64,000 nucleotides of DNA from Vicugna vicugna (GCA_013265495.1 MU057640.1:567303-631302); one strand, 5' to 3'. Shown: positions 3,757 through 60,504, counted from the first letter of the stretch. Numbers and translations: made by a program. Notes: generated by a model not told the origin, from the letters alone.

Positions 3757-6014
3757 CCTTCTGTAATTCTTGCTCATTTTCAGGATTCAAGCCTTACATG
3801 TGAGAGACCCCTTATTTTCTTACCTTCTATTGTCATGTGGGCAGAGCCTGAAAAGCAGGCAGGAGGCGCTCACCTCCCCGCGCCGGCTTCTGGGGAGCTC
3901 CCACGCTGAGGTCCCCGCCTGCTCCCTGGTCGGGGTTCCCTTGGTCCAGACACCCTGGTCTTCCAGAAAGGAAAATATATTGACCTGTACTGATCAGCTG
4001 GTTTTCGCATTTCCCCATCTCCTTCTCTGATCTAAGTGGCCAAGGCGTCGCTACTGTCTCCTGCCGTGAGGCGCCTGAGAACGCTCCCCTTTGATTGGGG
4101 CGATCTGGGCTGCCACCTGGAAAGTGTGTATTAGAGATGGCTGCTCTTTCTAAAGTACTCCTGAGCGTGGTGTTATTTCTCACCTCCCCCCCACCCCAGT
4201 GCTGGCTTATCTCCTCTACACCTCTTCTCAAATGTCAGGCCGTTTTGTCCCCGTGTGTAGGGCTTTCCTCACGCTGCGGGGCTTGGAGTGCTTCTCTTTT
4301 GTCCGGGTCCCTTCCATGGGTGTGCATGTGATGGCAGCTGCAGAGGGAGGCTTCTTGTGGACCCCCAGGTATCCTGCGGGCCCCAAGTGGACCAGGGGTC
4401 TCCTCCTTAGCGACTCCTCCCCACCCCTCCCGGCTGGCTGTTGACTTCGAGATGGGCCCCGGCCCACATTTTCCTCTGTCTGCCAGGACTGCCTCACGCA
4501 GTCTCGTGGGTCGTTGTCTTCCCTCCCCTCGTGTCCTCACCGTGAGGCCGGGCGGCCTTGCTTAGGAAGGAAGCGGGTCCTTTCTCCTCCTGGATGGAGA
4601 CGCAGCCCTAAGAAATCGTACCCCGTTGCGTGTTGTCCTCTCTGGGGATTTGTCAGTGCTTGTCTCTTGCTCCGACCCCCTCCGCCCCTCTTCTCTCACC
4701 CTGCTGATGAGAAACGGGGCTCTTCAAAAAGGATCGTCCGACTATGCAGTTTTAAACTGCATAGAAAAGAATAGCTGTACTGGGGCTTTATCTGGAGCCT
4801 CCTCACACGAGGAAGGTTCCAGAACCCTCACAAACAACTTTTTAGGGACATCTCTTCACAAGGCCTCTGAGAAGTCTGTGATTACCTCTAATTTTACTAG
4901 CGGGCAAGGTGGGGCAGAAAGGCCCTTAGTGTCCACAGGAGCCATCCCTTTTCTCTTCCACTGTTTCTCTGGACAGATCCGAGAGACAGCGGCTCTTCCC
5001 AGGTTCTCTGCAGCACAAACGCCACTGATCTGCTTGCTGCTCCGAATGTGTGCTCTGTTCCCTCCCACATTCCCCTGGGGGGTGCCCCGCCCCTGCAACC
5101 CCAACCATCTTCTCGTGAGCGCTAATTGCCAGCATCATCAATACCCAGTCATTAGCTGCTCCCACTGTTTGGGGTGGGGGGTGGGCTCCCATCCATCCTG
5201 CCCCTAAACGCCACTGGGCTGTGTGGTGAATCAAATGTGACGGCTCTGCAGCATTCTGAGGTCTCCGCTTTGTGGTCCTCCCTTGGCAAAGCTTTTGAGT
5301 GGGGGAGGGAGACAGGAGAGGTTCATCCAAAAGGCTAAGCTGCAGTTCCTCCAGGAAAAGTTCTGGGTGCCAGCGAGGTGGGAACGCAGACTTTTCCCTC
5401 TTTAGCAGAGCTGCGGGGGGGACCCTAGCTGCTTGTGAGCACAGCCCTGCAGACTCAGGAGTTGCCAGTGTCACGGGCATCCATGTTTGTACCACCTGCA
5501 GCAGTTGAGACCTTTTGACTTTGGTCCTCCTGCTGTCCCTGGCGGCTTCCCCCCAGCTGGGTCTCCAGCGAAGCCCATTGCTCATCACTGCTCCTGCGGC
5601 TGCTGAAAGGGCAGAACGGAGTGCTGGAGCCAGCACTGACCTCCCCCGGCCCCGCTGCCCCGCACTGCCAGCTCAGCACTCACTGCTGCTCCTCCTGTCC
5701 TCCCGCCCCTCCCGGCTCATGCTCTCCTGCCTTTGTTCCTCTCCTCCTGTCTCATTTTCTCCTGAATATATGCTTCTTGTCTCTCCTGTAGGTTTGTCCC
5801 CTTTCCTTTGTGCCCTTGCCTCTCTGCCTCAGCTCCAGGCGGCCCAGGGATGCTTGGCGCTCAAACAACCCCCCTACCTTGGGAGGTAGGACTTTTCTGA
5901 TGGGGTCTTCCCCGCCTGAGCTGCTGCCCTTCTCCTCCCTGTGGGAGGCTGGATTCTCCTGCCTTCTTTTATTTCTCTTACCACCTTCCTCTACCTTCTA
6001 CAAATGAAATCACC

Positions 6015-13193: not shown

Positions 13194-13444
13194 NNNNNNN
13201 NNNNNNNNNNNNNNNNNNNNNNNNNNNNNNNNNNNNNNNNNNNNNNNNNNNNNNNNNNNNNNNNNNNNNNNNNNNNNNNNNNNNNNNNNNNNNNNNNNNN
13301 NNNNNNNNNNNNNNNNNNNNNNNNNNNNNNNNNNNNNNNNNNNNNNNNNNNNNNNNNNNNNNNNNNNNNNNNNNNNNNNNNNNNNNNNNNNNNNNNNNNN
13401 NNNNNNNNNNNNNNNNNNNNNNNNNNNNNNNNNNNNNNNNNNNN
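13194..13444. other. Assembly gap (251 N)
   Basis: Run of N flanked by C-runs. Confidence 0.99.
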
Positions 13445-14225
13445 CCCACCCCCGCCGGGCTCCCCCCGTTGCCCCGCCTTCCCCATGCAGGGAGGAAGGC
13501 GTCGTTTGTCTTCCTCTGGAGCCCCAGGGTGGGGCCCGAGTTGCTATTAAGTGACCAGGAAGAACCAGCCTGCATGGAATCCCAACATTTTTATTCCTGG
13601 GATCTGTGGGGTTTATTTTTTCATCAGTTCTAGGGAAGCAATGAAAAAAGGTGTCAGGCCTTGGGGATAATTTATATGAGTAAACACGTAAGGAGTAGGG
13701 TGAGCAAGAGCATGAGAATTAAGGCCATTTATCCAGGCTTCGAGGCTCTGTGTGCCCTCTGGTCCAGCCTTCCGCACAGTCTCTGTCTCGCCACTTTAAC
13801 CCTCTCCTGGCTCTACTCCGCGTGGGCCCGGCATGGCTCTCTTCACAGCCCCAGCCTTCCACTGCCTCCCCCGCCCCTCCCTGGTCCCTCATTAAAGGCT
13901 GGGTGGAAGGGAGCAGGCGGTGGCGGTGGCCTCCAGCTGAGGCCTGCTCGCTGATTCTGAAGGGAAGGCAGTTGGCTTACCCCCTCCCTCCTTACCCTCC
14001 CCCGCCTCCGCAGCTTCTTCCTCTAGCCTGGCCTGTCCCTCGTGCCCTGTGTGGCCAGCCTGGGGCCACCTTTGCTTCCCCTCTTTTCCTCGCCCCTTAT
14101 CTTCACTCCATCCTCTGAAGATGCGTTCTGCACAGCCAAGTGGCACCGGGCTGGGATGCTTTACACTTGAGAGATGAAGTAATAACAGGTGGCAAGACCA
14201 GAGGCTGCCGGAGCCCAGGATTCCG

Positions 14226-19104: not shown

Positions 19105-19233
19105 CCCAGAAAGGACCGGATGGGACCGTCATTCCCAATAACTACTGTGACTTCTGCTTGGGGGGCTCGAACATGAACAAGAAGAGCGGGAGGCCGGAAG
19201 AGCTGGTGTCCTGTGCAGACTGCGGACGCTCTG
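19105..19233 (+). CDS. DPF3: DPF3 internal coding exon (129 nt; exon 8): N-terminal half of PHD finger 1
   Basis: CAG acceptor 19102-19104, GTGAGT donor at 19234; phase 1/1, joins in frame to previous exon; encodes [43 protein letters not shown]. Confidence 0.97.
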
Positions 19234-22074
19234 GTGAGTGCGGCCCCTCCTCGCAGCGTGTGCCCGTAGCCCAGGAGCTGTCCCGCTCGCATTCCTCTGC
19301 CGTCCTCGGTGGAGGGCGGGGGGGCCTGGAGGTGGGATGGAGTGACGGTGGTGGTGATTTGGAGTGGAGAGGGGTTTTCAGGTTATTTTGGTATTTTTCT
19401 TCTTTGAGTCTTAAGAACCATAAGTTATGCCCTGGGATCCAGGTAAAGAGAAAGGAGGTTTTGGCTTCTGTCTGTCCGGCTTTTCCATGAGGTGGATATG
19501 TTTTGTGTGTTGTTGTTGTGGACAACAGGGAGTCGGTGTGGAAACACCCTGGAGATGGGCAACATGCTTCCTTGTATCGGGTGATGTGCATGTAATAAAA
19601 ATGATGTGTTTGTTCTGTGGAAGAGCCCGGGGCAAACCGGAAGAGTATGGAAACATGAACACTGGGGGAGCTTCTGGAGTTGTGGGAGTCAGAGGCCTCT
19701 GGGCTCCTGGGAAGCTGCATAAATACCACCTCCATTGACCACTCATCCCATTTTCTCATACGGAACAGACAGAAGGGAGCCTGAGAGTAGATCAAGGAGG
19801 CAAAAGAGTCGGTGTTCTTAGGGCTCATCTGGAGTTGACTTGGAATGCTTAGAAATTTTCATCTTTATCCAGAGACTAAAATTGGTCTTGTTCTTTCCTT
19901 CTTAAAATGAGTTCAGGTCTTCAGGTTTTGTTCAAGCCATTGTCTTATTTTCCAATTCCATTATTTTTGGCTGGTCGTGGTTGGTTTTTCGTATTGTTTT
20001 ATGTTATAACTAGACCAAAGTGCAAGGCAGGGAGGAGAGAAGGTTTACAGTTGGAATACAGTTCGGTGGGTGGTTGGTTCCGGCAGCCAGGAGCCGGGAC
20101 TCTTGTCCCACCTTTCCACCCAGCAGCTTTTCTACTCTGAGTCCTGAGAGGAGGCCTGAGATGACCAGACCTGGCTTTACCATAGCAGCTCAGTTCTCCC
20201 CTTGCTTTGTCCACAAACCTTAGCTTTTGTCCTTTTATATTTGGTTTTGGGTTGCTTAAGCTTTCAGACTGACTTGAGCGGCAAATCAGGAATTGGAAAA
20301 GCACTGTGGTTTCCACTGCACACAACCCTGCACGTGTAACCCTTGAGCACCCTGAGGGGGTCGCCCGTCTCCTACAATCCCGTCAGTTCATTTACTTGCC
20401 AAATGTGATACCTAATGTCGAACTTTTCAGTCCTACTGGTGCCAACTTAGAAGGGAGGGCCCATGGGATGGTGGACTCTGGGATTTAGATACTCAAAAAG
20501 AAAATGAAACAAATGCAATCTAATTCAGCAGTTTTTAAAAGCAAGCGATCGGACAAAATCTCCGCCACCAGAAGCACAGTTACTTGGTGGCATGAATGTT
20601 ACAGACTGCTGTGGGTTTGGGATGCATTAGGGAGGGCAGCTTCAGCATTCAGTGAAAACTGATGAAATTTCCCCTCTTCCTTTCCTGTAAAAGGTGGGGT
20701 ACTTGAATCTGATCCCCGGGGGACCAGAAGTGGGCAGTTGGTTTTTTTTCTCTCCAAAGCCTCTCTCTCACCGTCTTTGCTCGGCTTACTCTTCCCGGGA
20801 TCTGTCTGTTGTGGGGCTCAGGGGGTCATTTTATACCAGTCTAGGTGTTCTCATTGCATTTTCCAAGGATTCATTTTGATGGATAGTTTAGTCAAGGTCT
20901 GACTCTGATGTTCCTGAAATAGTCGACACCTTGGGAATAAACAGGTGGCACTAACCCATGGGATACGCTAGTTAAGGCAAGTGGGCGAATACCTCTCAGG
21001 GCCTCCCTGGAGTCCTTCCAAGGAGGAGTGTGAAGCTCGGAAGAGCAGTCTTGTCCTTCCCAGCTACCCGGCCACTTCCTTTTCCTGGGGGAGAGTGTGA
21101 GAGTCCTGAAACTGGCACCATCAGTGGTGCCTCATGACCTCATTAGGGGGTTGTCCCAGGCCCCATTTAGAATGTGGAAAAGCTTCAACTTGACTTCCTT
21201 AGATTTGAGGACACTTTCATTGGGCTTTGCCACCCCTGTTTCCCACTTTCTCAGTGCTCTGAGTTAAATATGAGTAACTGGGCTTTCTGGAGTAACTTTC
21301 TGGAGTAACTCAGACCTGAGTGCGTTTACTGGCTGGAGGGCTGTGCACGGGCCCGCGCGTACACCGCGTGCATGTGTATGCACACGTACGTGGGTGCAGA
21401 TCACAGAACTGTCCTCCAGCGGTGAAAGAAAACCACAGGCTCTTTTATTACCTACTGCTTATCAGACTTGCCGACTTCTTTTTGCTTTTAGAGCAAATGA
21501 GCTACATGGTGTAAGGGCAGCACTGAAAGGGTCCAGAAAGAATGGGATTAGAAATGGGTAAAAATCAAAAATAAAACGGATGGAGGCTAACCACCTTGAC
21601 CGGGTTATCTGACAGTAATACCTTTGTAAAGCTGACTGTCAAAGTGAAGGACAAACATTGTGCAAAGAAACGCCTGCTGCAAACACCAAAGAAATACCAA
21701 CCGGGCTTAAAAACCACCGAGGAAATGCATTGTCTGGGGCGGGGTTGAGCGAGCGTGCATGCCAATGTGTGCCTACGGAAGAGAAGAAAGAAAGATCGAG
21801 GTTGAATCTTGCGCTGTCAGAGCTGTGGACACATGTATTATGGTAGAGATGATGCCTTTTCAGGGAGGGGAGAATCCTTCTCCCTGGAAATGTTGGCTTT
21901 GTCCTGTTACCCCAAATCCCTGTTGCCAGGTGACGCACACCCAGTTCACCCCTTTTTAGTGTGAAATGGTTTATGCGCTTGCTATTAAGAATAACCCGGT
22001 AATAATGTAATAAGAATATGAATAATGCTGTCTGTTGCTTAACCATGTGCTGATATATTCATCATACATGTCAG

Positions 22075-22277
22075 CTCATTTGGGAGGAGAAGGCAGGAAG
22101 GAGAAGGAGGCAGCAGCCGCAGCACGCACCACGGAGGACTTATTCGGTTCCACGTCAGAAAGTGACACCTCAACTTTCCACGGCTTTGATGAGGACGATT
22201 TGGAAGAGCCTCGCTCCTGCCGAGGACGCCGCAGTGGCCGCGGTTCGCCCACAGCAGATAAAAAGGGCAGTTGCTAA
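22075..22277 (+). CDS. DPF3: DPF3a-specific alternative terminal exon, coding part (truncated PHD1 isoform, disordered C-terminus)
   Basis: CAG acceptor 22072-22074; phase 1; encodes AHLGGEGRKEKEAAAAARTTEDLFGSTSESDTSTFHGFDEDDLEEPRSCRGRRSGRGSPTADKKGSC-TAA(22275-22277), matching the DPF3a C-terminus as I know it. Confidence 0.95.
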
Positions 22278-23373
22278 ACGCACGGAACAGACTCTCTGGG
22301 CAATTAGCCATCACCCTCTGACTTTGGTCCTTGTTCTGGTTCTGATATATATATTTTTTAATGAAAGACAACTTAGGTTTTCCCTTCATCCTTGCTTTTT
22401 CCTCTCACCTTCCATGTGTCCCTGCCCCCTTTCCCTCTCTTTAGGGTATGTACAACAGAAGCACAAACTACTGAAACAAAACAGAACAAAAGAGCACAGA
22501 GTAACAGTCCTTCAGAGAGATGGCATCGTGATGTACTATTTATTTTCTATAGAAATGGGAAGTTAGGCAGAGTATCTCTTTTTGGGGGGGAGGGGACCTT
22601 TTTGACACGAGCAGAGTTGATTTCCTCAGTTGTCCTATTTATTGGCAAAATGAAGAGAGGAGGAGCATTGGGTTTGGAAACAAAGAACCGATAACCGTTA
22701 AAAATTATTATTTATATATTCTAGCTATTGTTAGAAGCAGACTTTTTTTTGAGAGAGAGAGAGAAGGGAAATCAAAGACGTGGAAGTAATGTCCTGTTTA
22801 GAAGACAGCCACTGGGGGGAGGATTGATTCAAAGCGCCCCAATCAGGAGGATCTCCTCGATGGCAGAGGATGGCACTTTCTGTGCCCCACGGAGTTGGTG
22901 GCTCCCCACGGCAGACCCCCCTCCCCGTTTCTCCTCCCTGACCTTTCCATCTTCCTCCCTGCTTGTGAGGAAACGGCTGCAGTCCCTGAGAAGCCCGGGC
23001 TGCCCGTGTACGGCCTCCCTCCAGCACCTGGGCCCTGACCAGCAGCGCCTCCTGGCCTGGGACCCTCCTCCTCCGTCAGCATAGCTGCTGTTTGGTTGTT
23101 GCTGGGTTTTTCCCTCGCTTTCCACCTGGCGAAGAGCAATTTCCACATGCAGGAATGGAATATAAGCAGAAAGGCATGGACTCAGCGGTGACAAACAACT
23201 CGAGGCTGCGCTCATGGAAGAAAGAATGTTACCTCAGTCTGTTTCCCTCTTCCCCTCGCCCCCTGTTTAAAAACGTATAAATACCCGTTGGATGATCAAG
23301 TCTCCTGTATTCTTCTATTTTTTTATAGTGCCCCCCAGGCACTTTGTTTTATGTTTCCAATAGCACCTCCTGA

Positions 23374-23379
23374 AATAAA
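23374..23379 (+). terminator. Candidate proximal polyadenylation signal of DPF3a
   Basis: AATAAA preceded by TGTA (~23306) and U-rich tracts, ~1.1 kb after the stop. Confidence 0.6.
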
Positions 23380-24619
23380 CCAAAGCAACACTTGCTCAAG
23401 GCCCCTGGGGTGACGGAGACCATCCACCTTGTTGGCAGCCCCGAGGATGAACAGCTGTGCAGTCCTAGTCAAAAGGTATGTCTTGACTGATCTGTCTTAC
23501 GATGAGGGAAAACCATCACAGTTGCTTTTTTTTTTTCTTTCTTTCCTTTTTTTCCTTTCCCTCCTCCTAACTCGTCTTTTGTTTTTCTGGGTTCAACCCC
23601 ACTTATTAGTGTGGGTGTGGCCACTGGAGCATCTTCTACCAGCCATCTGCTGTCTGAGTGTGCATGTGTACCTATGCGGGCCTGGGCCTAGGTGTGGGAT
23701 CTGAAGCTTGTTTGGACTGTGGGGGGCTCTGTGTGGAGAATGGTGGGCTTATGGCTTCCACTGCAAGAGAAGATGGCTGTGGGGAGTGCTTGGCTAAGTC
23801 TGCCTTCCTGGGCTACGTCTGGAAATGGAATCCGGGGAAGTGAGGTTGGAGTTGGGTGCTATACTTGGGTAGGAATGAGGGGACTGCATGTCTAGGGTGG
23901 ATGGTCCAGGTACCAGTTGAACAGCCAATTAAAGAAGATCTCTGATTTGGCACAACATTCAACCCAGTTGATCTGAAGATCCCGAGCTCCCAGTAAGTAG
24001 GGTCAGGGTCTCCGGCCTTCATGAGAGCATAGGTCCAGATACTCAGGCACTGCCATTTGGCTTGGGTTGGGGGCTCCATGAGGCCACCCAGGCAACAGGC
24101 TGTAAGTGTCTGGAAAGATCTGCTTTGACAGTCCAGCCTTTGCAAGAGCCTCATGCATCAGACCTCTCATTAAAATAGCAAACCAACCAAACAAAAGCAA
24201 GGACCGAGCAAAGAAACCCGCAAATGAACCCTTTGTGCTTCCCTGGTAGGCTGAGAATGGAAAGGGCTGCTGCTTTTCTCCTGCTTGAAATGTCTAAGTG
24301 CTTGCCTGGGCATTTGTTCTCAGTTGTGAGAGAATGAAAGTAACCATGTCACTCATTTTGGGGATGCTCTGCCTAATCTGTGTGTGGCCCTGATCCTAGG
24401 AAATGCAGCATAAACCTCCAAAGTTGTAATATTCCTGTGTGCTCATGTGTGTGCAAAAGCTATCCCAGATGGTTCCAGTTGGTTTCTTGTACGGGGATAT
24501 AGCCTGCTCTTGCTGTCATTCTCTGCCTCTTTGCTTCATCTGTTCATTGACTTTGACTCAGATATTGGATTCATAGCCTTATCACTTGTTCTCACTGATG
24601 AAATGTGAGTTTCTACATT

Positions 24620-24625
24620 AATAAA
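24620..24625 (+). terminator. Candidate distal polyadenylation signal of DPF3a
   Basis: AATAAA followed by GT/T-rich sequence (tgtatatgtc...tgtagttgtttgtag). Confidence 0.5.
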
Positions 24626-25309
24626 AAGATGTGCAACCAATGTATATGTCATTTGAACTCCATGTAGTTGTTTGTAGTCCTGAAGTTCTCAATGACAGCT
24701 TGCCTTTGAACTTGAAATTTTTAAAAACCTGCATAATCAAAACAAATTATAAAAAGTCACCTCATTTCAAGGTCTAGCTTAGAGTCCTGATGGGGCACCA
24801 AGAATGAGCTGTCTAAATGAGACAAACTCCCACAGAGAGATTTATCTGAGGATGGCTATTGCTGATCTATTTCCGTTTTGCTAGTCTAGCTTGATCTTCA
24901 AGGTCCCCTCTTGAGGGTGGTAGATGTCCTCATCTTTCTTAGTTGGCGTAGCCAAGGTGAGCATCAAAATGTATCTTAGCACTGCCTGAGGACCTTGTCT
25001 CATCTTGCTTATAGTATCTTTCTACAGACTCAGAATTTATATCCTTTGAAAAAACAATAAAGGACTGGAAGGGACTTTGACGATGATGAAGTTCAAATCT
25101 TTCACTTTTCATTGAGAAAGATCAACCCAGAGATGTTGAGTTACATTGAAGAGGGTGGAATGGAGGTTACTTTGGAGGCAAGTATCTTGAAGTGAAGGAA
25201 GGAAGGCAAGACTGAGGAGGCAGTTGAGGAGGAAGCTGGCTGCGCCAGGGTTTCCAAAATGCCTTGATGGTCAATGTTACATCATTATCCTCCTTCCGTT
25301 ATATAACAA

Positions 25310-25530
25310 TGGCCAACATTTATATGCCAGATCTTGTTCTGTTTGCCCTGGAATGGTTCATTGAATTCTCATGACTGCCCGTGAGGAAGGTGCTTGTATT
25401 ATTCCCAGTTTACAGATGAGGAAACTGAGGCCTAGTAATTAGGTTAAGAAATATACCTGAAACCCCACAGCTAATAAGAAGCCAGGTTTTGATCCTTGGC
25501 AGCCTGACTCCAGGACTTACAGTCTTTACT
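25310..25530 (-). mobile_element. MIR SINE
   Basis: attattcccagtttacagatgaggaaactgaggc core. Confidence 0.75.
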
Positions 25531-26714
25531 TTTATTATTGTTCTGTGCTGCCCTTTGCACATATATATGTATATATGGAATATATGAACATGTGTATACA
25601 TATATATACATTTATCTCCCTTCCTCTTTCTTGGGTCCACCTGAAGAAAGGAGTGTTTGTAATAAAATAGCTTTAAAAGTTACCCTTATTAAAAGCAATT
25701 TCAAAACTGAAGAGTACCCAATTAGATCCCCCAAAGAGAATTCCAATTAAAATTCTGTGCAGCATTTTATAGAGAGCTCATTTTCTAAACCATCATTTCT
25801 AGACATTCCCTCCTGAATGCCTGTTAGGGACATAGGTCTACTTTTTTGCAACCTTAGAAATTGCTAGAGTTGTGTGAGCAGTCAACTCATCTACCATTTT
25901 GTTGTTGCTTTTGTTAAATAAGTATTGTTACTCAAATAGTAATATGAAAGAAATTGGAATCACCAGGATGAAAATGGTCTGACTAGTTTCCTTTGTCCTC
26001 AGCTCAGCAAAGCACCATCCCAAATCCTTTAAAAGTGTCACCTAATTTTCTGAATCCTAACCCAAAGATAAGAAAATCAAAGATACAGAACTTTCTAAAT
26101 TTGTTACAACATTCAGATCCCCCAGGGGGAACTGTTGATGTAAAGGTGATTATCGTTGTTTTCTATCTGTTGTTTTTTCCTGCCTAGGACAATCCAACCC
26201 TTTACATCTGTTCCTGAGACTATGTAGAGATCAGACCCTCTTATCACCTTTAACACTGGGAGTGAGAAAATATGCATTTAATTTTTTAAAGGTACTTTAA
26301 AGTCACTAATGCAATTTGCTACTGGTATTGTGGAGAGAAGGACTTAATAAAAATATGATGCTCACATCAACAGCATCCCTTTAAGTCTTCCTGCTTACTT
26401 TGCATCTCTCTATGCACCTAATGGGCTGAAACCTGATATTGCCTTTATATGGCACTTGAGGGAACACAAGATCATTACTCGGGGAGAGAACTAAAGGCTG
26501 TTTGGAGGTTCTCACTTCATGGTGGAATAAAATTAATTAATATTATCCCAATATGCCTCCTGTTACATCTGATGAATATGATCTTGAACTTGTAGTTAAA
26601 AGTTTGAGCAGACGCATGTACTAGGAATTATTCTGCAGGGGATTTTGTTTGGCCTTTGGAAGTGAAGTTACTTGTGTCTTTTCTGAGTGAGGCATTTTTG
26701 ATCTAGTGAGTAGA

Positions 26715-26990
26715 AGCCTCGAGTGGAAAAGTCCTGGGTTCTGGACTCAGTCCCTGTGTGAGTTTGTTGCCATGAATCTCTGCCTCAGTTTCTCTATCCC
26801 GAAGGTGTGGACATTCCTTATCCTGTCAGAATATATAACCAACATGGCCTCATGAGGATTCTTAAAGCCACCCTGCAAGGTAGGGTAGGTGTTCTTTATT
26901 CCCATTTTACTGATGAGGAAACTGAGATTCAATCAGGTTAAATGACTGGTCTGAAGTCCAGGGTCAGTAGGTGGCATCTGGGTCTTCTAA
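26715..26990. mobile_element. MIR SINE fragments (both orientations)
   Basis: ctctgcctcagtttctctatc; cccattttactgatgaggaaactgaga. Confidence 0.6.
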
Positions 26991-27354
26991 TACTCCTTCC
27001 TCAGTCTGTACTGACTTCTCCACAGATCTTGTTTTGAAGATTTCTTGAGTAAAATCAAGAAAGGGCTCTGAAGTCTTTCATTCAAGACCTCACTGGGTTG
27101 AGAAGAGGTTAACTGATGCTGTAAAAACCAAACCAAACCAAACCAACAAAATAAAAACTCCAACATATCATCACATTGGAATCCTGTTGAGAGGTGGCAA
27201 TGTCTAAGTCTTCATGAACTTTCCCAAAGAACAACGGTTGAGCTTTTTAAATGATCAGTGTGCTGGTGGTGACATTGGGGTTGGGTGAGGGAGTAGTGAG
27301 GTCGCAGGGTGAATCACTTCAAGCCCTGTTTTGGTCACATATCCAAGTAGTTCT

Positions 27355-27609
27355 TTTTTTTTTTTTCCTATTTTTTTAAAACATAGTTCTTCTTCTTCTT
27401 TTAAAGACAAGTGCTTTATTTTATTTAAAAAAACTTTTTTGATTGACGTACTGGAAATTGAACCAGGACCTTGTGCATGCTAAGCATGTATTCTACCACT
27501 GAGCTATACACCCCCCCCTTTTTTTTTGTTAGCGGAGATACTGGGGATTAAACCCAGGACCTCATGCATGCTAAGCATGCACTCTACAACTGAGCTATAA
27601 CCCCACCTT
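27355..27609 (-). mobile_element. Dimeric Vic-1-like SINE (two tRNA-like heads in tandem) with 18-bp target-site duplication
   Basis: Two heads (~27445-27518 and ~27533-27607); TSD acatatccaagtagttct (27337-27354) / acatatccaagtatttct (27610-27627). Confidence 0.8.
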
Positions 27610-27861
27610 ACATATCCAAGTATTTCTAGCACTAAAATATTGAATTATATGATACTGTTGTATTTAATAAGAGTGATTTCTGACCATTTACTCAAAATAA
27701 CAGTATAGGAAGAACCATTCTGCTTGATTGATTTACAAAACAGCTGAGGATGATAGAAGATCCTTGTTAGAAGTAAATTATTAGCTAAAAGATATTGGCA
27801 GTTAGGTTTTCAAAGTGTCCCAACACTGGCCCTCAACCAACAACTAAGACTTTAAACACTT

Positions 27862-28335
27862 TTTTTTTTAACATTTTGAGATAATTTCAGATTTATGAAA
27901 ACTTATACAAATAATACAAAGAATTCCCATATCCTCTTCACTCAGATTCTTCAAATAATCACAGGACAATAATCACAATCAGGACATGCACGTTGACGCA
28001 ATACCACAGTCTGCAGACGTTAGTCAAATTTTGCCAATTGTCTCACTCATGGTGTTTTTCTGGTCCAGGATCCAGTCCGGGATCCCATGTTACATTTAGT
28101 TGTCATGTCCTCTTAAAATCCTTTAACTTGAGTCATTAGTTTTGCATCTTTCTTTGTCTTTCATAACCTTAAAACCTTTGAAGAATACTGGCTATCATTT
28201 CATAGAAAGTCCTTCATGTTAGGATTGTGTACTGTTTCTTAATGATTAAAATCAGGTTATGCATTTTTGGTAAGACTGTCATAGAAGTGATGCTGTATCC
28301 TTCTCAGTGCATAGTATCAGGGAGCACATGATTGA
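27862..28335 (-). mobile_element. L1M 3' end fragment
   Basis: T-tail then ttttgagataatttcagatttat...aaagaattcccatatcctcttcactcagattc. Confidence 0.7.
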
Positions 28336-29382
28336 TTTACTCGTCTCCAAGTGACTCAGACATTTGGCCTTTCAGCTGAGGTTCAGGCTGGTATGGCTGC
28401 AGACCTTAGAGGATAATATTTTCATTCATTTGGCAACTGGGGACTGAGTAATAGCAGCTCAGGCCTGTGAAGGATAGGATGAAATTAAACATGGGGCCCA
28501 TGGATTTATTGTCCATTGGATTTATTTGCAACTTAGTTTGGCAGACTAGATATTCACAAGTAGTTAAGAATGTGTAAGAGTATCGTGGGGTGGTTCATGA
28601 TTATTTTCGCTTTGGCTCATAGCAGTCAGGGAGATTTTCTTGGAGGAAGCCATCTAGATCAACAAAGAGCTTGACTGTGGCTATTTAATCTGTAGGCAAG
28701 AATGTCTGTTGTCAAAGAGAATGGAGATTGAGCTGAAGGAAAAGCAAAGCTGGGATTTATATAAAATGGCAAAAATCACAATATTTTAAAAAAATTGCTT
28801 AAGTATTGTTCTGTAGCATTTTGTTCATGTCATTGGTATTAATGCTTATCAAAACATATTGTGATTGTTTGTAGCCCTTCTGATAAAGCAGATGGTGTGT
28901 TCCTTGAGGGCAAAGATGATGTCATGCATGTCCCTCGGACAGTACCCGACACCATTGTGTCATAATTACTTGTTGAAATAAGCACAACTGAGCAATGTTT
29001 CTGAGCTAATTAGTGGAAGGAGTTGGTGTCTTGTTCTATGCATAGTGGGCGCTCAGAAAGTGTTGCTGACAGAAAGGTTGAAGTCGTATGTGGACACAGC
29101 ACCCGCTGGTCAAGTCAAGGAGGTGGATGGGAGCCAGGAAGCCATGAAGTGGTGGTGAGGGGTGAGGGAGAGAATGAGGATGTGAGGACGGGTGAAGGGA
29201 AACTGAAGATGTGTGGTGGGCTGGAAAGTAAGCTTCCTTGAGACTTAGGGGGGACTGAGAGCAGAAGACTGAAACATAGCAGGACATTCCCAGTGGCCTG
29301 CAGTTGGCCCAGGAAGAGAACATGGATGTGGAAGGACAGAGTTGGGAACCAACCAGCTATGTGGCTTAGATGGGACAAAAGA

Positions 29383-29385
<3 letters not shown>

Positions 29386-29423
<38 letters not shown>
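29386..29423. repeat. (GT)n microsatellite (~19 units)
   Basis: Uninterrupted GT run. Confidence 0.97.
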
Positions 29424-29426
<3 letters not shown>

Positions 29427-30998
29427 TTGGGGGGTCAAAGGCAGAAATTTGAGGAAATGGAAAGGGCATGGGGGATGGTTATGAAACAGACTCACTAACT
29501 GAGTGGCAGAGGGGCCAGAGAGGGGTGAGAGGCATTGGGTGAGGGACAGAAAGACTCCTGGCAGGGATGACAGTCTGACTGGGTGCCCAACCAGAGAATA
29601 CTTGGAACCCCTATGGAAGGCCTGGCGAAAGGCCAGTGGGTTCTATCACTGGCGCGAAGGGGTTGGAGGAGGTGGCACAGTGAAGAGATGAGCACCAAGG
29701 AAGGAGGGGGAGCCTGGGAGGGGGCAACAGAAAAGCAGATCCTAGAGGGAGACAGTGGGATGGACTGGGATGGGATGGAGAGGAAAGATACAGGAACAAG
29801 TGTGGAGGGAGGGCTTGGTGGTGGGTGGAAATGAGACCTGTCTCAGCCTCCCTTGGAAAGCATGAGTAGATGGATAGAATCAGCTTTGGAAGTGCAGCTG
29901 ATCCAGTCCTGTACACCTGATACATGAGTGATGCCTCAGGTACTAGCAGGAGAAGTTGGGGTGCAGGGGTGGGTGGGGAGTTTCAACTTGGAAGAGGCTG
30001 GGTGGCTCACTTGATTTTGAACTTTGTTCCCTGCCACCTTGGCCACTGTCCAGTTGGGCACCCAGCCTTCCTTTCCTCCCTCCCTTGCCACTTAGCTCAG
30101 AGTGAGCTGGACACTGTTAGGGGCACCCATCTCTGCCCTCAGGAACGGCTTCTTGGGTGAAATGTGATAGTATTTGGTTTCATTGTACTCTTTCATGCTG
30201 GCTACTCCATTCCAAAGACCAAAATAACTTAGCAGATTTCATTTCAGCTAGAAGCAAAATCCATGCATGGTTGGTACCTGTCAGGCTAGAGGACTCACCT
30301 GGTGTGAACTGCCACCAGATTCCAAGGCTGACAATTGGGATCACTGGGCTCGTTGAGGACTGGAACGGATATGCTGGCTTGGTTCTCTCTTTTGAGTGAT
30401 TCTGACACCTGGAATCACTTGGGTCAGCACAGGGGTGAGGTGTAGGCATGAAGCAGTCTCCTTTTGGCCTTCGGCCGAACGGGACATCCGTTGGGGTTTT
30501 CTGTGACTGCAGCTGGTCCTGTACGGAAGGAACTCCTCATGTCCGCTTAGGTGAGGCGACAGGTTGTATCATAATGGTCTTTCTGGAGTATTTAACACTG
30601 AAAAGATTCAGCTGGTTTCATTTCCAAGCAGAGGAGGGAAAAAGATTTTGCTAACACCCAGTTTTGCCAGCTACGCCGCCTAGGAATTGACAGTCTCTCC
30701 GTGCCCTCTGAGCCTTGAGTCATCCCGTTGGCCAGGAGCAGCTGCCCTGCCCTGTTCCTGGCTGATTTCGAGCTGCTGGTGGTGAAGGCACAAGGCACTA
30801 GCCTGGTTCTCCTGTGCATAGGCATGGCCTTGTTCGTGTGGCGATTCGCTGTTTGCGGTCTTTCTTTCTTTCTTTCTTTTTTTTCCCTTTTCCACTCATT
30901 TCATGTCCACCACCCCCTTAATGTAGACCTTTCTTTTTTAGGCATTTGTCCTGTGCTGTTGTTTTTTGTTTTATCTTTCATTGCCTTTCCCTCTGCAG

Positions 30999-32750
30999 TC
31001 AACGCTCTGACCTGGGGACTCCAATATCCTTCAAACAAGCCGTTTCTGAAGAAGGTGAAAAGAAGCCACCACGATCTGCGCCTCCTCCTCCTCCTCCCTT
31101 GCCTGGCCCCCTCCTGCGCACGTGTTTCTGCCAACACAGGAGCCTGGATTGCGGAAAAGCCTCCAATGCAACTCAGCTCAGCTCAGCGATGTCTCGGGAA
31201 CGGCCTAACTGTGCAATAAGAAGAATTTCTTTTTTTCCTCTTTTTAAAATTCTCCATTACGTTTTCTCTAAGTGTCCGTGAGAAAGTATGCAGGTCAGAC
31301 TGGGATTGCTCTACAGTAGAAATAACTGAACACGAACAAACTGACAAAAAAAAAAAAAAAAGAGTTAACTATTTTATTTATTTCAATATTTAAAAGAAAA
31401 GGTGCTGATGTGGCAGAGTATTTTTGTTTAAAGTACCTTCTACTTCAAAAGTTAAAAGAAATTTTGTGAAGACATGAAAATCAAAAGAGGACTTAATGTA
31501 AAATAAAGACTGCCTATTAACTCTAAGGAAAAATACCCCACATTTTTAATAAGAGAATAAAGATCAACTCTGCTCTCTCGGGGTTTTTAAAAGCCATTCA
31601 TGTATGTGCTTTAGGTATTTTTATTTCTGCAAGTTGGATGTGGTAAGTGAGGAGTGATCGATTTTTTTTTTCCTTCTTCAAAAGTCTATTGAAAGTGTTT
31701 GATGATGTCTTAAGACTTGACTGAAATAAATTAGGCACAAAGGCGGTCAGCAGTCTCTCCGAGCCTCCCCCCAAAACAAGTACCCAAGCAAACAAACAAA
31801 CAGCTCCCCCCTTACCCTGGGCAAGCCCCATTTACCCCGTTTCGAGAAGCAGCCTGCCTCCTGATTATCGTGTCTGACGAGGCCTAGTTCTGAAAGGAAT
31901 TCCATCTAGTGATTAAATATATCTCTGCAGATTCAACAGATTTGGATACGGACAGCTTTGTTTAAAATAATGTGGTGAAGGAAGAGAGAGGGAAAAAAAA
32001 GAACAAAAAAGTGTCACTTGGGATGACATTAATTCTGTTCCCTCACGGCTCCTGGGGGAGACGTGTGAAGGGGGCCTGCTGCTGAGCCAGTTCCTGGGGC
32101 CTGACACAGTGAGGAAGGCCAATGTGAAAGATGGAAACCTCAAATTTGGTTGCTGGTGGGGGTAAAAAGGGAAAAGGTGAGAGGTCTGACACGTCCTTTT
32201 ATGGCCATGTTGGTGGAAGGAACGTTTTGGACTATGAAATGCATTCAGCATAGTGTCTGCTGCCTAGTGAAGGGGCTGAGTTGACTGGCTGGGCCACTGG
32301 GTTCCACCCCCAGTCTCTTACCTGTCCACGCTCTTGAGTGTCCCTCACTGGTAAGAAGTCACAACCAATGTACCATCTAACTCTGGGTATTCCTCTTAGC
32401 AAAAGTTTTGAGTTGACAGTGTTACTGAAATGGTTCTGAGCCCAAGAATCTCTCTTTTGCCTTTGCAAGGGGGAGACTGGATGGGCACAGACTTCCTGCC
32501 AGCCCTGAAAAGGCCAGTCCCCCGAGTAGATCACCTAGAGTCTCTCTGTATCATTTTGTAGCCCTTTTCTGTGACGTTTTCTGATAGAAAATGTCCCTTT
32601 CCAAAATGCTAATAATTATAATAATAATCCTCTCTCCCACCCACTCCCACAAGTTATAACATGTAGAATTGTGATAAAACTTTGCATAATGTAGGGTTTG
32701 TATCAAGTTTGTATAAGTTTCTGTTAAATAAAAGTCTGTTTCCAATGCTT
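30999..32750 (+). other. DPF3: Candidate additional alternative terminal exon of DPF3 (coding to 31219 if joined to the exon ending at 19233, then UTR-like sequence)
   Basis: Very long pyrimidine tract + CAG at 30996-30998; phase-1 reading open to TAA ending 31219; repeat-free UTR-like sequence with AATAAA at 31502, 31556, 31725 and 32727. Confidence 0.5.
32727..32732 (+). terminator. Strong candidate polyadenylation signal
   Basis: AATAAA with four TGTA (CFIm-type) elements in the preceding ~70 nt and U-rich downstream sequence. Confidence 0.6.
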
Positions 32751-33512
32751 CTATAGCATCTCTGTAAATTTTGCTTTTCCAACCTCATCCTGCATAAGTT
32801 CAACTTTCATACTGTCCTGTAGAAGGGACTCTGCCCATTTGCATGTCCAGGATTTGCTGAACCTTAATTGTTTTGTGTAGAAACACAGTCTAGAACAGTG
32901 GTGGCCGCTGGCTTGGCTGACAGGTGGTGTCTTGGGAAGTGCACCAAGCTCAGCGTTGGTGCCAGCACCTGCGCTTTGAGTCCAGACATGCTGTCCCCTG
33001 CCCACCATCACCATGGCCATCATCACCCTCTCCATGGCCAGAGTGAATTTATGAAGAGCCTGGTTATATGTACTGACTTAATATACCCAGCGAATGTTGT
33101 CGTCACACCAGTGCTAAGATAGTTTTGCACAAGAATGCAAGGTTTAGTGTGTGCTTGGAAAAAGCTGAGAGGTTCATGTTTCTATTGCCTAAAAAGTGCT
33201 CTTGGTGTTGCCTCTCCAAGATGCTGGTTGGTATGGCTGTAAACCAGTCCCCCTGAGACAGGTTTCTCCTTGTGTGTGGACGTGGACACTCTTCTCTGAT
33301 GGGTCCTCTAGGTCAGAGAGAACCACACCAGCCTTTCAGGCCAAGTCTTGCTCTCTGAGCATTGCTAGCCTCTGCTGAGGCCAGGTGGAGATGGAACATG
33401 ACTTTGTGATGCTGATGCTAGCACGTTCTATCCTCCTGTAGACTGAACGCCACATTATGGCATTCATTGTGGACTTTATACATTTCCCTAGCAGAAAAAG
33501 GGGTTTTCCCTC

Positions 33513-56629: not shown

Positions 56630-57300
56630 CACCCTCTCCCTCTTGAAAGCTCTCCTCTTGGCCACTGTGACCCATACTTGCCCAGTTTGCATCTTACCTC
56701 TCTCTGGCCGTCCTTTCAACTTTCATCTGTTGGTTCTTTCTTTTTATCTTCAAATAGTTGAGTTCCTCAAAGTCTAATCTTAGACCGTTTCTCTCTTTTC
56801 TCCTCTTCCTTTCTCTTTTTTCCCTTTTCCTAGGTAATTTCATGAATTCTCAATGACCATCTATTAAGAAAAAACTCCTAAATTTACATGTCTAGTCTGT
56901 ACTTCTCTTTTGGGCTCTAAACCCGTATATTCAACCATCCACTTGACATTTCCACCCAAACTCTCACAGACTTTCAAATTCAACATGCTCGAAACAGAGC
57001 GAAGCCAGCTCCCCTCCCCATTTGGTCCCTATATGCTTTCTATAGCCTTCCTCACCGGAGTACGTTTCACTGCCACCTGCCTTGTGTCTTTGGTCAGGAT
57101 ATTGAGAATATTTCTCATCATCTCTCTTTCCCACACGTCCAATGTTCAAATAATGGTCAAGTCCTGTCAATGATTTCTTTAATATTTCTTAAATCTCCAC
57201 CTTAGTTTCATCATCCTTGTCTCTCTCCTGGCAGCAGCATCTGCCTCCAAACTAGTTTCCTGGCAACAATTCTTATGTCTCTGCACCCCCTTACCCTCCC
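56630..57300. mobile_element. L2 LINE fragment
   Basis: actccctaaatttacatgtctag...cccgtatattcaaccatccacttgacatttcc...caaattcaacatg. Confidence 0.6.
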
Positions 57301-60391: not shown

Positions 60392-60504
60392 GTCACCCCA
60401 CCTGCCTGCAGTTCACCCTGAACATGACTGAGGCTGTGAAGACCTACAAGTGGCAGTGCATAGAGTGCAAATCCTGCATCCTCTGTGGGACCTCGGAGAA
60501 TGAT
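60392..60504 (+). CDS. DPF3: DPF3b-specific exon (113 nt): completes PHD1 and begins PHD2; the gene continues beyond the window
   Basis: Branch-point-like CCCTAAT 60362-60368, pyrimidine tract, CAG acceptor 60389-60391, GTGAGT donor at 60505; phase 1/0; encodes [38 protein letters not shown]. Confidence 0.97.

What the first reader, a model, noticed from the sequence alone, without database searches (positions are those of the whole stretch)
30822..32750. Candidate third DPF3 terminal exon: three in-frame acceptors, an open C-terminus and its own strong polyA site
Seen: a ~100-nt AG-free, pyrimidine-rich zone (30822-30924) and a branch-like CCTTAAT (30916-30922). Only three AGs follow (30925-26, 30940-41, 30997-98), spaced 15 and 57 nt, so all three are phase-1 entries into one frame. 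Phase 1 is the phase of the donor at 19233. The frame runs to TAA at 31219: [DLSFL][GICPVLLFFVLSFIAFPSA]VNALTWGLQYPSNKPFLKKVKRSHHDLRLLLLLPCLAPSCARVSANTGAWIAEKPPMQLSSAQRCLGNGLTVQ. About 1.5 kb of repeat-free, UTR-like sequence with four AATAAA follows. Established: DPF3a and DPF3b differ by terminal exon choice after this donor. Inference: a third isoform lacking the double PHD reader, or a spliced 3'UTR exon. The 30941 acceptor would add a hydrophobic, possibly membrane-anchoring segment.
Basis: partly seen in the sequence, partly recalled or inferred. Interest (0 to 1): 0.75.

Follow-up and report, generated by a model that had tools for sequence, protein, structure and literature searches.

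The report
Spliced untranslated tail exon of DPF3a
This stretch is a real, conserved final exon of the chromatin gene DPF3, but it is the non-coding tail of the known short form DPF3a, already in the human annotation, and not a new protein end; whether splicing in this tail shortens the message's life appears untested.

Summary
The signals are real; the coding reading is not supported. The acceptor at 30999 is joined to a donor inside the DPF3a 3'UTR (last exonic base 23475, 1198 nt after the stop at 22277), across a 7523-nt intron. Of 65 database ORFs mapped back to the window, 11 cross exactly this junction, in all three frames. One deer gene model joins the same two regions with an offset. 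None carries exon-8 residues, and none enters at 30927 or 30942. The 30927 AG is absent in 20 of 20 homologs; the TAA at 31219 is matched by 0 of 27 representatives, and 10 of 27 shift frame earlier. A published Ensembl table lists five human DPF3 transcripts with one 3'UTR intron 1184 nt after the stop, implying last exons of 958 and 1791 nt. These match the signals at 31912 and 32727 by length. So it is already annotated. Likely working: a distal 3'UTR intron that exposes DPF3a mRNA to NMD (inferred, about 50%). A conserved-looking AATAAA 101 nt before the donor might give an intron-free escape form. No reads were laid in this species.

The parts
19231..19239 (+). Donor of the last exon shared by DPF3a and DPF3b (last exonic base 19233, phase 1). 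No evidence that it joins the candidate exon.
   Evidence: 0 of 65 ORFs link this exon to the candidate
22075..22277 (+). Coding part of the DPF3a-specific exon (exon 9), stop ending at 22277
   Evidence: translation; naming as the DPF3a tail rests on recalled motifs and on the exon-9 description in bioRxiv 10.64898/2026.08.25.746968 (passages)
22278..23475 (+). First part of the DPF3a 3'UTR, 1198 nt (human annotation: 1184 nt from stop to intron)
23374..23379 (+). AATAAA 101 nt upstream of the UTR donor: candidate proximal polyA signal; use not shown, downstream element weak
   Evidence: 19 of 19 homolog ORFs that reach the site read E-I-N across it, which is compatible with the hexamer but does not prove it
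23473..23481 (+). Donor of the 3'UTR intron, AAG|GTATGT
   Evidence: best match to the P0007 junction flank among 932 G|GT sites; unspliced homologs read G-M-S or R-Y-V here in 8 sequences
23476..30998 (+). 3'UTR intron, 7523 nt, itself nested in the 41-kb intron that DPF3b removes
30822..30996 (+). AG-poor pyrimidine-rich 3' end of the intron, with branch-like yTnAy at 30918-30922 and, nearer the acceptor, 25 and 18 nt upstream of its end
   Evidence: L-N (compatible with the TTAAT) in 20 of 20 homologs that cover it
30925..30926 (+). First AG: weak and not conserved; probably not an acceptor
   Evidence: rank 342 of 4582 on a crude matrix; incompatible with the residues of 20 of 20 homologs
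30940..30941 (+). Second AG: good consensus, 20 nt after TTAAT; possible minor acceptor, use not seen
   Evidence: rank 32 of 4582; used by 0 of 11 junction ORFs
30997..30998 (+). Acceptor AG used in other mammals; exon starts at 30999
   Evidence: 11 of 11 exact junction ORFs
30999..32755 (+). Non-coding last exon of DPF3a, about 1750 nt (human 1791 nt by subtraction); end position inferred from the hexamer
31912..31917 (+). ATTAAA; probable signal of the shorter annotated end (about 940 nt here, 958 nt in human)
   Evidence: match by length only
32727..32732 (+). Distal AATAAA with upstream TGTA and T-rich flanks; probable signal of the longer annotated end
   Evidence: match by length only
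60392..60500 (+). Start of the DPF3b-specific PHD exon (context; end coordinate approximate)

Best explanation
The region is the second, non-coding exon of the DPF3a 3'UTR. The shared exon splices to 22075 and translation stops at 22277. The UTR runs to a donor at 23475, a 7.5-kb intron is removed, and the exon from 30999 is cleaved and polyadenylated after 31912 or 32727. Shown: this junction exists in other mammals, and a 3'UTR intron at the same distance is annotated in human. Inferred: that this species uses it, and where the ends lie. Inferred mechanism (about 50%): the splice leaves an exon junction complex about 1.2 kb behind the stop, so the spliced DPF3a mRNA is translated into normal DPF3a but turned over faster by NMD, as for Arc. 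The exon tunes DPF3a amount and 3'UTR content, not protein sequence. The confidence figure is for the exon's identity, not for the NMD step.
For: Junction ORFs: P0007, P0013-P0015 (phase 1; 4 sequences on 5 Logan contigs); P0035, P0057, P0036, P0046, P0047 (phase 2); P0055 and P0043 (phase 0; P0043 has one extra residue at the join). Unspliced counterparts diverge from them exactly at the donor (P0033 against P0007, P0038 against P0035) or at the acceptor (P0050 against P0043). PMC7310861 S3 Table, human sheet: ENST00000366353 and ENST00000381216 (UTR 2142) and ENST00000541685, ENST00000610283, ENST00000614862 (UTR 2975), all Type 1 (distal), distance 1184. Window distances are 1198, about 940 and about 1750. 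No coding constraint and no Pfam family. The 50-55 nt EJC rule and the Arc case: PMC13223760 passages, PMC5934489 abstract.
Against: No reads or contigs were laid on the window, so the junction is not shown in this species. The human match is by lengths, as the table has no coordinates; the 958-nt last exon could be another exon. No Dpf3 row occurs in the mouse or zebrafish sheets of that table (all 5 hits are human). Against the NMD step: in HCT116 cells, introns lying exclusively in 3'UTRs were not predominantly NMD-sensitive, whatever their distance from the stop (PMC13223760). DPF3a is also the main isoform in kidney tumours (PMC9363427). The ORF sample is biased: one search was seeded with a junction sequence, and alignment A2 held P0007 and P0011.
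Confidence: 0.9

Rival explanations
1. Third coding terminal exon: exon 8 splices directly to 30999, 30942 or 30927 and gives a conserved, functional PHD-less DPF3 with a new 74-98 aa tail.
For: All three AGs are phase-1 compatible and the frame is open. 10 of 27 representatives keep this frame over most of 31025-31193. PMC11678306 calls the exon-8 donor a conserved splicing 'hotspot' for truncated isoforms (passage).
Against: 0 of 65 ORFs carry exon-8 residues, including a search of proteins of 171-2000 aa (183 candidates, 5 hits, which the tool itself calls weak evidence) and a profile search of 1.84 billion representatives (18 hits). The stop is matched by 0 of 27, 18 of 27 shift frame just before it, and 10 of 27 shift earlier, although the searches favoured open frames. 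RACE in human kidney cells found no new DPF3 isoforms (PMC8456159 passage; Figure S8 not seen). Rare skipping of exon 9 as splicing noise is not excluded.
Confidence: 0.04
2. The exon is real, but the splice is regulatory neutral or stabilising: it mainly removes 7.5 kb of intron to give a defined 2.1-3.0 kb UTR, and the mRNA escapes NMD. This differs from the best explanation only in mechanism.
For: PMC13223760: exclusive 3'UTR introns are not predominantly NMD-sensitising, and some rescue transcripts from decay. DPF3a is abundant where measured. Three DPF3 NMD or UTR paper searches gave no report of DPF3 as an NMD target (listings only).
Against: The stop-to-junction distance (1198 nt) is far beyond the 50-55 nt rule. 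In zebrafish EJC mutants, distal 3'UTR-intron genes rise as a group (PMC7310861 passage).
Confidence: 0.4
3. Chance intronic sequence, a retrocopy, or the end of an unrelated transcript.
For: Each signal alone is only moderately rare: tenth-longest AG-free run; 31 AGs in the window outscore both good acceptors on a crude matrix.
Against: Exact junction ORFs in 7 sequence groups. Single copy in the own genome by DNA and by the second-frame peptide (other matches E 0.047 or worse). Human annotation.
Confidence: 0.03

Closest known systems
Human DPF3 transcripts ENST00000541685, ENST00000610283, ENST00000614862, ENST00000366353, ENST00000381216 (Ensembl GRCh38, in S3 Table of PMC7310861; rows seen)
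   Same: One distal 3'UTR intron 1184 nt after the stop (1198 here); last exon 1791 or 958 nt by subtraction (about 1750 or 940 here).
   Different: Matched by lengths only. That these IDs encode DPF3a is partly recalled; the table gives the gene, not the protein isoform. Small indels differ.
Arc 3'UTR introns (PMC5934489, abstract seen)
   Same: Conserved splicing wholly inside the 3'UTR of an mRNA for a full-length protein, far enough from the stop to permit EJC-dependent NMD.
   Different: Arc has two introns and tested NMD and translation effects. DPF3a has one 7.5-kb intron nested in another isoform's intron, with no functional test found.
HIV-1 5' LTR poly(A) site suppressed by U1 snRNP at the major splice donor 195 nt downstream (described in PMC3694450, passages seen)
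   Same: A polyA hexamer lies shortly upstream of a strong 5' splice site (101 nt here).
   Different: Use of the AATAAA at 23374 is not shown, its downstream U/GU element is weak, and nothing about U1 was tested. It is a resemblance of layout only.
DPF3a (XZ) alternative last exon (PMC11678306, passages seen)
   Same: Same gene and same transcript; the candidate is its downstream UTR exon.
   Different: The XZ tail is described as highly conserved across vertebrates, whereas the candidate's frame and stop are not conserved. That paper has no occurrence of 'UTR' or 'untranslated'.

Membership tests
Coding alternative last exon of DPF3 | Spliced directly to the exon-8 donor | tested here: not met
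   0 of 65 ORFs; indirect, no reads laid
Coding alternative last exon of DPF3 | Reading frame and stop conserved across mammals | tested here: not met
   stop matched by 0 of 27; earlier frame shifts in 10 of 27; frame largely kept in 10 of 27
Coding alternative last exon of DPF3 | Translation (peptides or ribosome footprints) | not testable with these tools
   no proteomics or ribosome-profiling tool
Distal, exclusively 3'UTR intron/exon | GT-AG intron with both ends downstream of the normal stop | tested here: met
   donor 23476 and acceptor 30998 lie after the stop at 22277; junction ORFs in other mammals
Distal, exclusively 3'UTR intron/exon | More than 50-55 nt from stop to junction | tested here: met
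   1198 nt; human 1184 nt
Distal, exclusively 3'UTR intron/exon | Junction present in RNA of this species | tested here: inconclusive
   14 RNA or guessed-RNA contig sets hold 0.31-0.50 of the exon's words, but none was laid
Distal, exclusively 3'UTR intron/exon | Own polyA site at the end of the last exon | tested here: inconclusive
   hexamers at 31912 and 32727 fit the human UTR lengths; no 3'-end data
Arc-type NMD-regulated 3'UTR intron | Spliced form stabilised by loss of UPF1, SMG6 or the EJC | not testable with these tools
   no DPF3 NMD report in the listings; the supplement of PMC13223760 could not be read
U1-occluded polyA site (HIV-1 5' LTR type) | PolyA hexamer shortly upstream of a strong 5' splice site | tested here: met
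   AATAAA 23374, donor 101 nt downstream
U1-occluded polyA site (HIV-1 5' LTR type) | The hexamer is a working site that is activated when the donor or U1 is removed | not testable with these tools
   weak downstream element (8 T in 45 nt); needs 3'-end sequencing and a minigene

The most novel reading that the evidence does not exclude
DPF3a output is set by a built-in switch. A conserved polyA signal sits 101 nt upstream of the UTR donor, the layout by which U1 snRNP silences the HIV-1 5' LTR site. With U1 bound, the transcript reads on, splices to this exon and becomes NMD-sensitive. With U1 or splicing limiting (differentiating muscle, stressed heart, tumours), it is cut near 23400 and gives a short, junction-free, stable DPF3a mRNA. 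That would couple U1 availability to the amount of a reader-less BAF subunit without changing the protein.
Probability: 0.15. Interest if true: 0.6.

Novelty: already known. Interest (0 to 1): 0.22.

Why it matters
It removes a false new isoform and fixes the gene model for this genome: the DPF3a exon 9 has a working donor, and its mRNA can end about 9 kb further on. The DPF3 papers searched here do not discuss the DPF3a UTR ('UTR' occurs 0 times in three of them). Yet five annotated human transcripts carry a junction 1.2 kb after the stop. DPF3a has roles in muscle and is the main isoform in clear-cell kidney cancer, so whether its level is set by NMD or by polyA choice around this donor is a cheap, open test. 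cDNA overexpression constructs that carry only the coding sequence would miss this layer (inference).

Tried and rejected
1) Retrocopy or pseudogene origin: the own-genome DNA search gave only the self match; the second-frame peptide gave no meaningful other match. Rejected. 2) Second open frame 30922-31281 as coding (phase 2): no Pfam family, and homologs switch in and out of it. Rejected. 3) Membrane anchor at 30942: explained by the T-rich tract (the control windows overlap and used a 55% T cut-off, while the segment has 53%). 4) Structured RNA: Rfam over 22000-33500 found only a tRNA-like match at 27533-27604; no informative pairing between the intron ends. 5) Sequencing runs: 24 listed, 20 holding the stretch, 14 RNA or guessed RNA with 0.31-0.50 of words. 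None was laid, and 13 of the 14 are only guessed to be RNA, so they are not used as evidence. 6) My splice-site matrices are crude and rest on recalled frequencies: two true acceptors rank 1051 and 1220 of 4582. 7) Dropped from junction counts: P0011 (deer gene model, four extra residues at the join), P0056 (upstream part does not map) and P0052 (unrelated repetitive hit); all three remain in the n of 65. 8) Literature: searches found no paper on a DPF3 3'UTR intron or third terminal exon (listings seen). Lange 2008 is not held. The supplements of PMC13223760 and PMC8456159 could not be read. Only 12 of 34 supplement files of PMC9203280 were searched, with no DPF3. bioRxiv supplements are closed. 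These unseen files may already list the event or its UPF1 response. 9) Earlier scan notes: none near this place, none on DPF3.

Full report
Setting. The window holds the 3' part of DPF3 on the + strand. Translation places the last shared exon's donor after 19233 (phase 1), the DPF3a-specific exon at 22075 with its stop ending at 22277, and the first DPF3b-specific PHD exon at 60392 (the exons were located with short recalled motifs). The candidate therefore lies 8.7 kb after the DPF3a stop, inside the intron that DPF3b removes.

Observation. The AG-free zone, the branch-like heptamer, the three AGs, the open frame and the four AATAAA are all as described. Each is only moderately unusual. The zone is the tenth-longest AG-free run on the strand. 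0.6% of 177-nt windows are as AG-poor. Four hexamers have P about 0.04. A frame this long follows 3.9% of 4463 AGs. A second frame is open for 119 codons. The exon is single-copy in the genome as far as the search sees.

Which donor is used. No reads were laid on the window, so I used ORFs that gene callers had marked on public contigs; such ORFs cross a splice junction when the contig comes from RNA. All 65 were mapped back to the window. Twelve match both the DPF3a UTR before 23475 and the exon after 30999. Eleven of them cross the same junction, in all three frames: P0007 and P0013-P0015 in phase 1; P0035, P0057, P0036, P0046 and P0047 in phase 2; P0055 and P0043 in phase 0 (P0043 with one extra residue). 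The twelfth, P0011, is a deer gene model with four extra residues at the join. Unspliced partners pin the ends: P0033 is nearly identical to P0007 up to the donor and then reads on into the intron; P0038 does the same against P0035; P0050 shares the exon with P0043 but enters from the intron. The P0007 flank fits 23476 best among 932 G|GT sites. None of the 65 has exon-8 or DPF3a coding residues, and none of the 11 enters at 30927 or 30942. Caveats: the organisms are unnamed, so I count 7 sequence groups, not species. One search was biased toward this junction, and the profile included P0007 and P0011. Contigs may contain errors. P0007 itself came from the unbiased.

Coding test. The AG at 30925 cannot be present in any of 20 homologs that cover it, given their residues. 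Tracking frames in 27 cluster representatives: 18 shift frame just before the window's TAA, none matches it, and 10 shift frame between 30999 and 31190. Pfam finds nothing. The hydrophobic 19-mer is the pyrimidine tract itself; 12% of 75 T-rich control windows are as hydrophobic. PMC11678306 (passages) describes the true DPF3a tail as highly conserved. PMC8456159 (passages) reports RACE with no new DPF3 isoforms. The second AG (30940) has a good consensus and may be a minor acceptor; its use was not seen.

Known annotation. S3 Table of PMC7310861 (rows read; column meaning) lists five human DPF3 transcripts with a distal 3'UTR intron 1184 nt from the stop and UTRs of 2142 or 2975 nt. By subtraction the last exon is 958 or 1791 nt. 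The window gives 1198 nt, and 913 and 1728 nt from the acceptor to the hexamers at 31912 and 32727, about 940 and 1750 nt with the usual 20-25 nt to the cut. Three lengths agree within about 2%. The match is by length, not coordinates, and the mouse and zebrafish sheets have no Dpf3 row.

How it works. Shown in relatives and annotated in human: splicing within the DPF3a UTR. Inferred: an exon junction complex stays about 1.2 kb behind the stop and can trigger NMD, as with Arc (PMC5934489, abstract). I put this at about 50%. PMC13223760 (passages) found that exclusively-UTR introns are not predominantly NMD-sensitive in HCT116 cells, while PMC7310861 (passages) found distal ones rise as a group in zebrafish EJC mutants. 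DPF3a is the dominant isoform in kidney tumours (PMC9363427, passages), so any decay is incomplete or avoidable. One route of avoidance is visible: an AATAAA at 23374, 101 nt before the donor, within a block that reads E-I-N in all 19 homolog ORFs reaching it (compatible with the hexamer, not proof). A polyA signal just upstream of a strong donor is the layout of the HIV-1 5' LTR site that U1 suppresses (PMC3694450, passages). Its downstream element is weak, and nothing here shows that it is used. An AATAAA at 24620 with a GU-rich flank is another possible end for an unspliced form.

Novelty. The exon is already annotated in human, and 3'UTR introns are a known class (489 human genes with APPRIS-supported distal ones). 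Searches for DPF3 with UTR intron, NMD, alternative polyadenylation or miRNA terms (listings only) found no study of it. Subscription papers, Lange 2008 and several supplements were not seen. The scan's earlier notes hold nothing on it. Other papers touched: bioRxiv 10.64898/2026.08.25.746968 (passages), bioRxiv 10.1101/2024.01.10.575007 (passages) and PMC9203280 (12 of 34 supplement files searched).

Verdict. Real exon, wrong donor and wrong product in the headline reading; already known; interest 0.22. The remaining interest is an apparently untested post-transcriptional control of DPF3a, with a 15% chance of a U1/polyA/NMD switch.

Noticed in passing
window 22378-22451: Inside the DPF3a UTR, a 66-nt AG-free pyrimidine tract ends in AG followed by one G and GTATGT: a strong acceptor-like site directly abutting a donor-like site. 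It could be a cryptic or recursive site.
   Followed up: no
window 24620-24680: AATAAA with a strong GU/U-rich downstream flank, 1.1 kb inside the UTR intron; a possible end of an unspliced DPF3a UTR. Homolog ORFs show similarity continuing for about 400 nt past the donor (P0033, P0065).
   Followed up: partly
P0011 (NCBI OWK09305.1, Celaphus_00006023): A deer 'hypothetical protein' that is probably a spurious gene model built on the two halves of the DPF3a 3'UTR.
   Followed up: partly
window 27440-27610: Two tandem tRNA-like elements, probably SINEs; Rfam tRNA match at 27533-27604 on the - strand, 56 bits.
   Followed up: no
window 5677-5792: 113-nt AG-free tract ending in an acceptor-like AG in the intron after the C2H2 exon; no obvious DPF3 peptide follows.
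   Followed up: partly
window 56809-56840: Highest-scoring acceptor-like site of the window on my crude matrix, directly followed by GTAATT (AG/GT juxtaposed), deep in the long DPF3b intron; possible recursive splice site.
   Followed up: no
window 23661, 23885, 27474, 27565, 28925, 30264: TGCATG hexamers (RBFOX-type motif, recalled) in the UTR intron, two within 410 nt of the donor; enrichment not tested.
   Followed up: no
window about 13195-13445: Assembly gap: the window holds 251 N.
   Followed up: no
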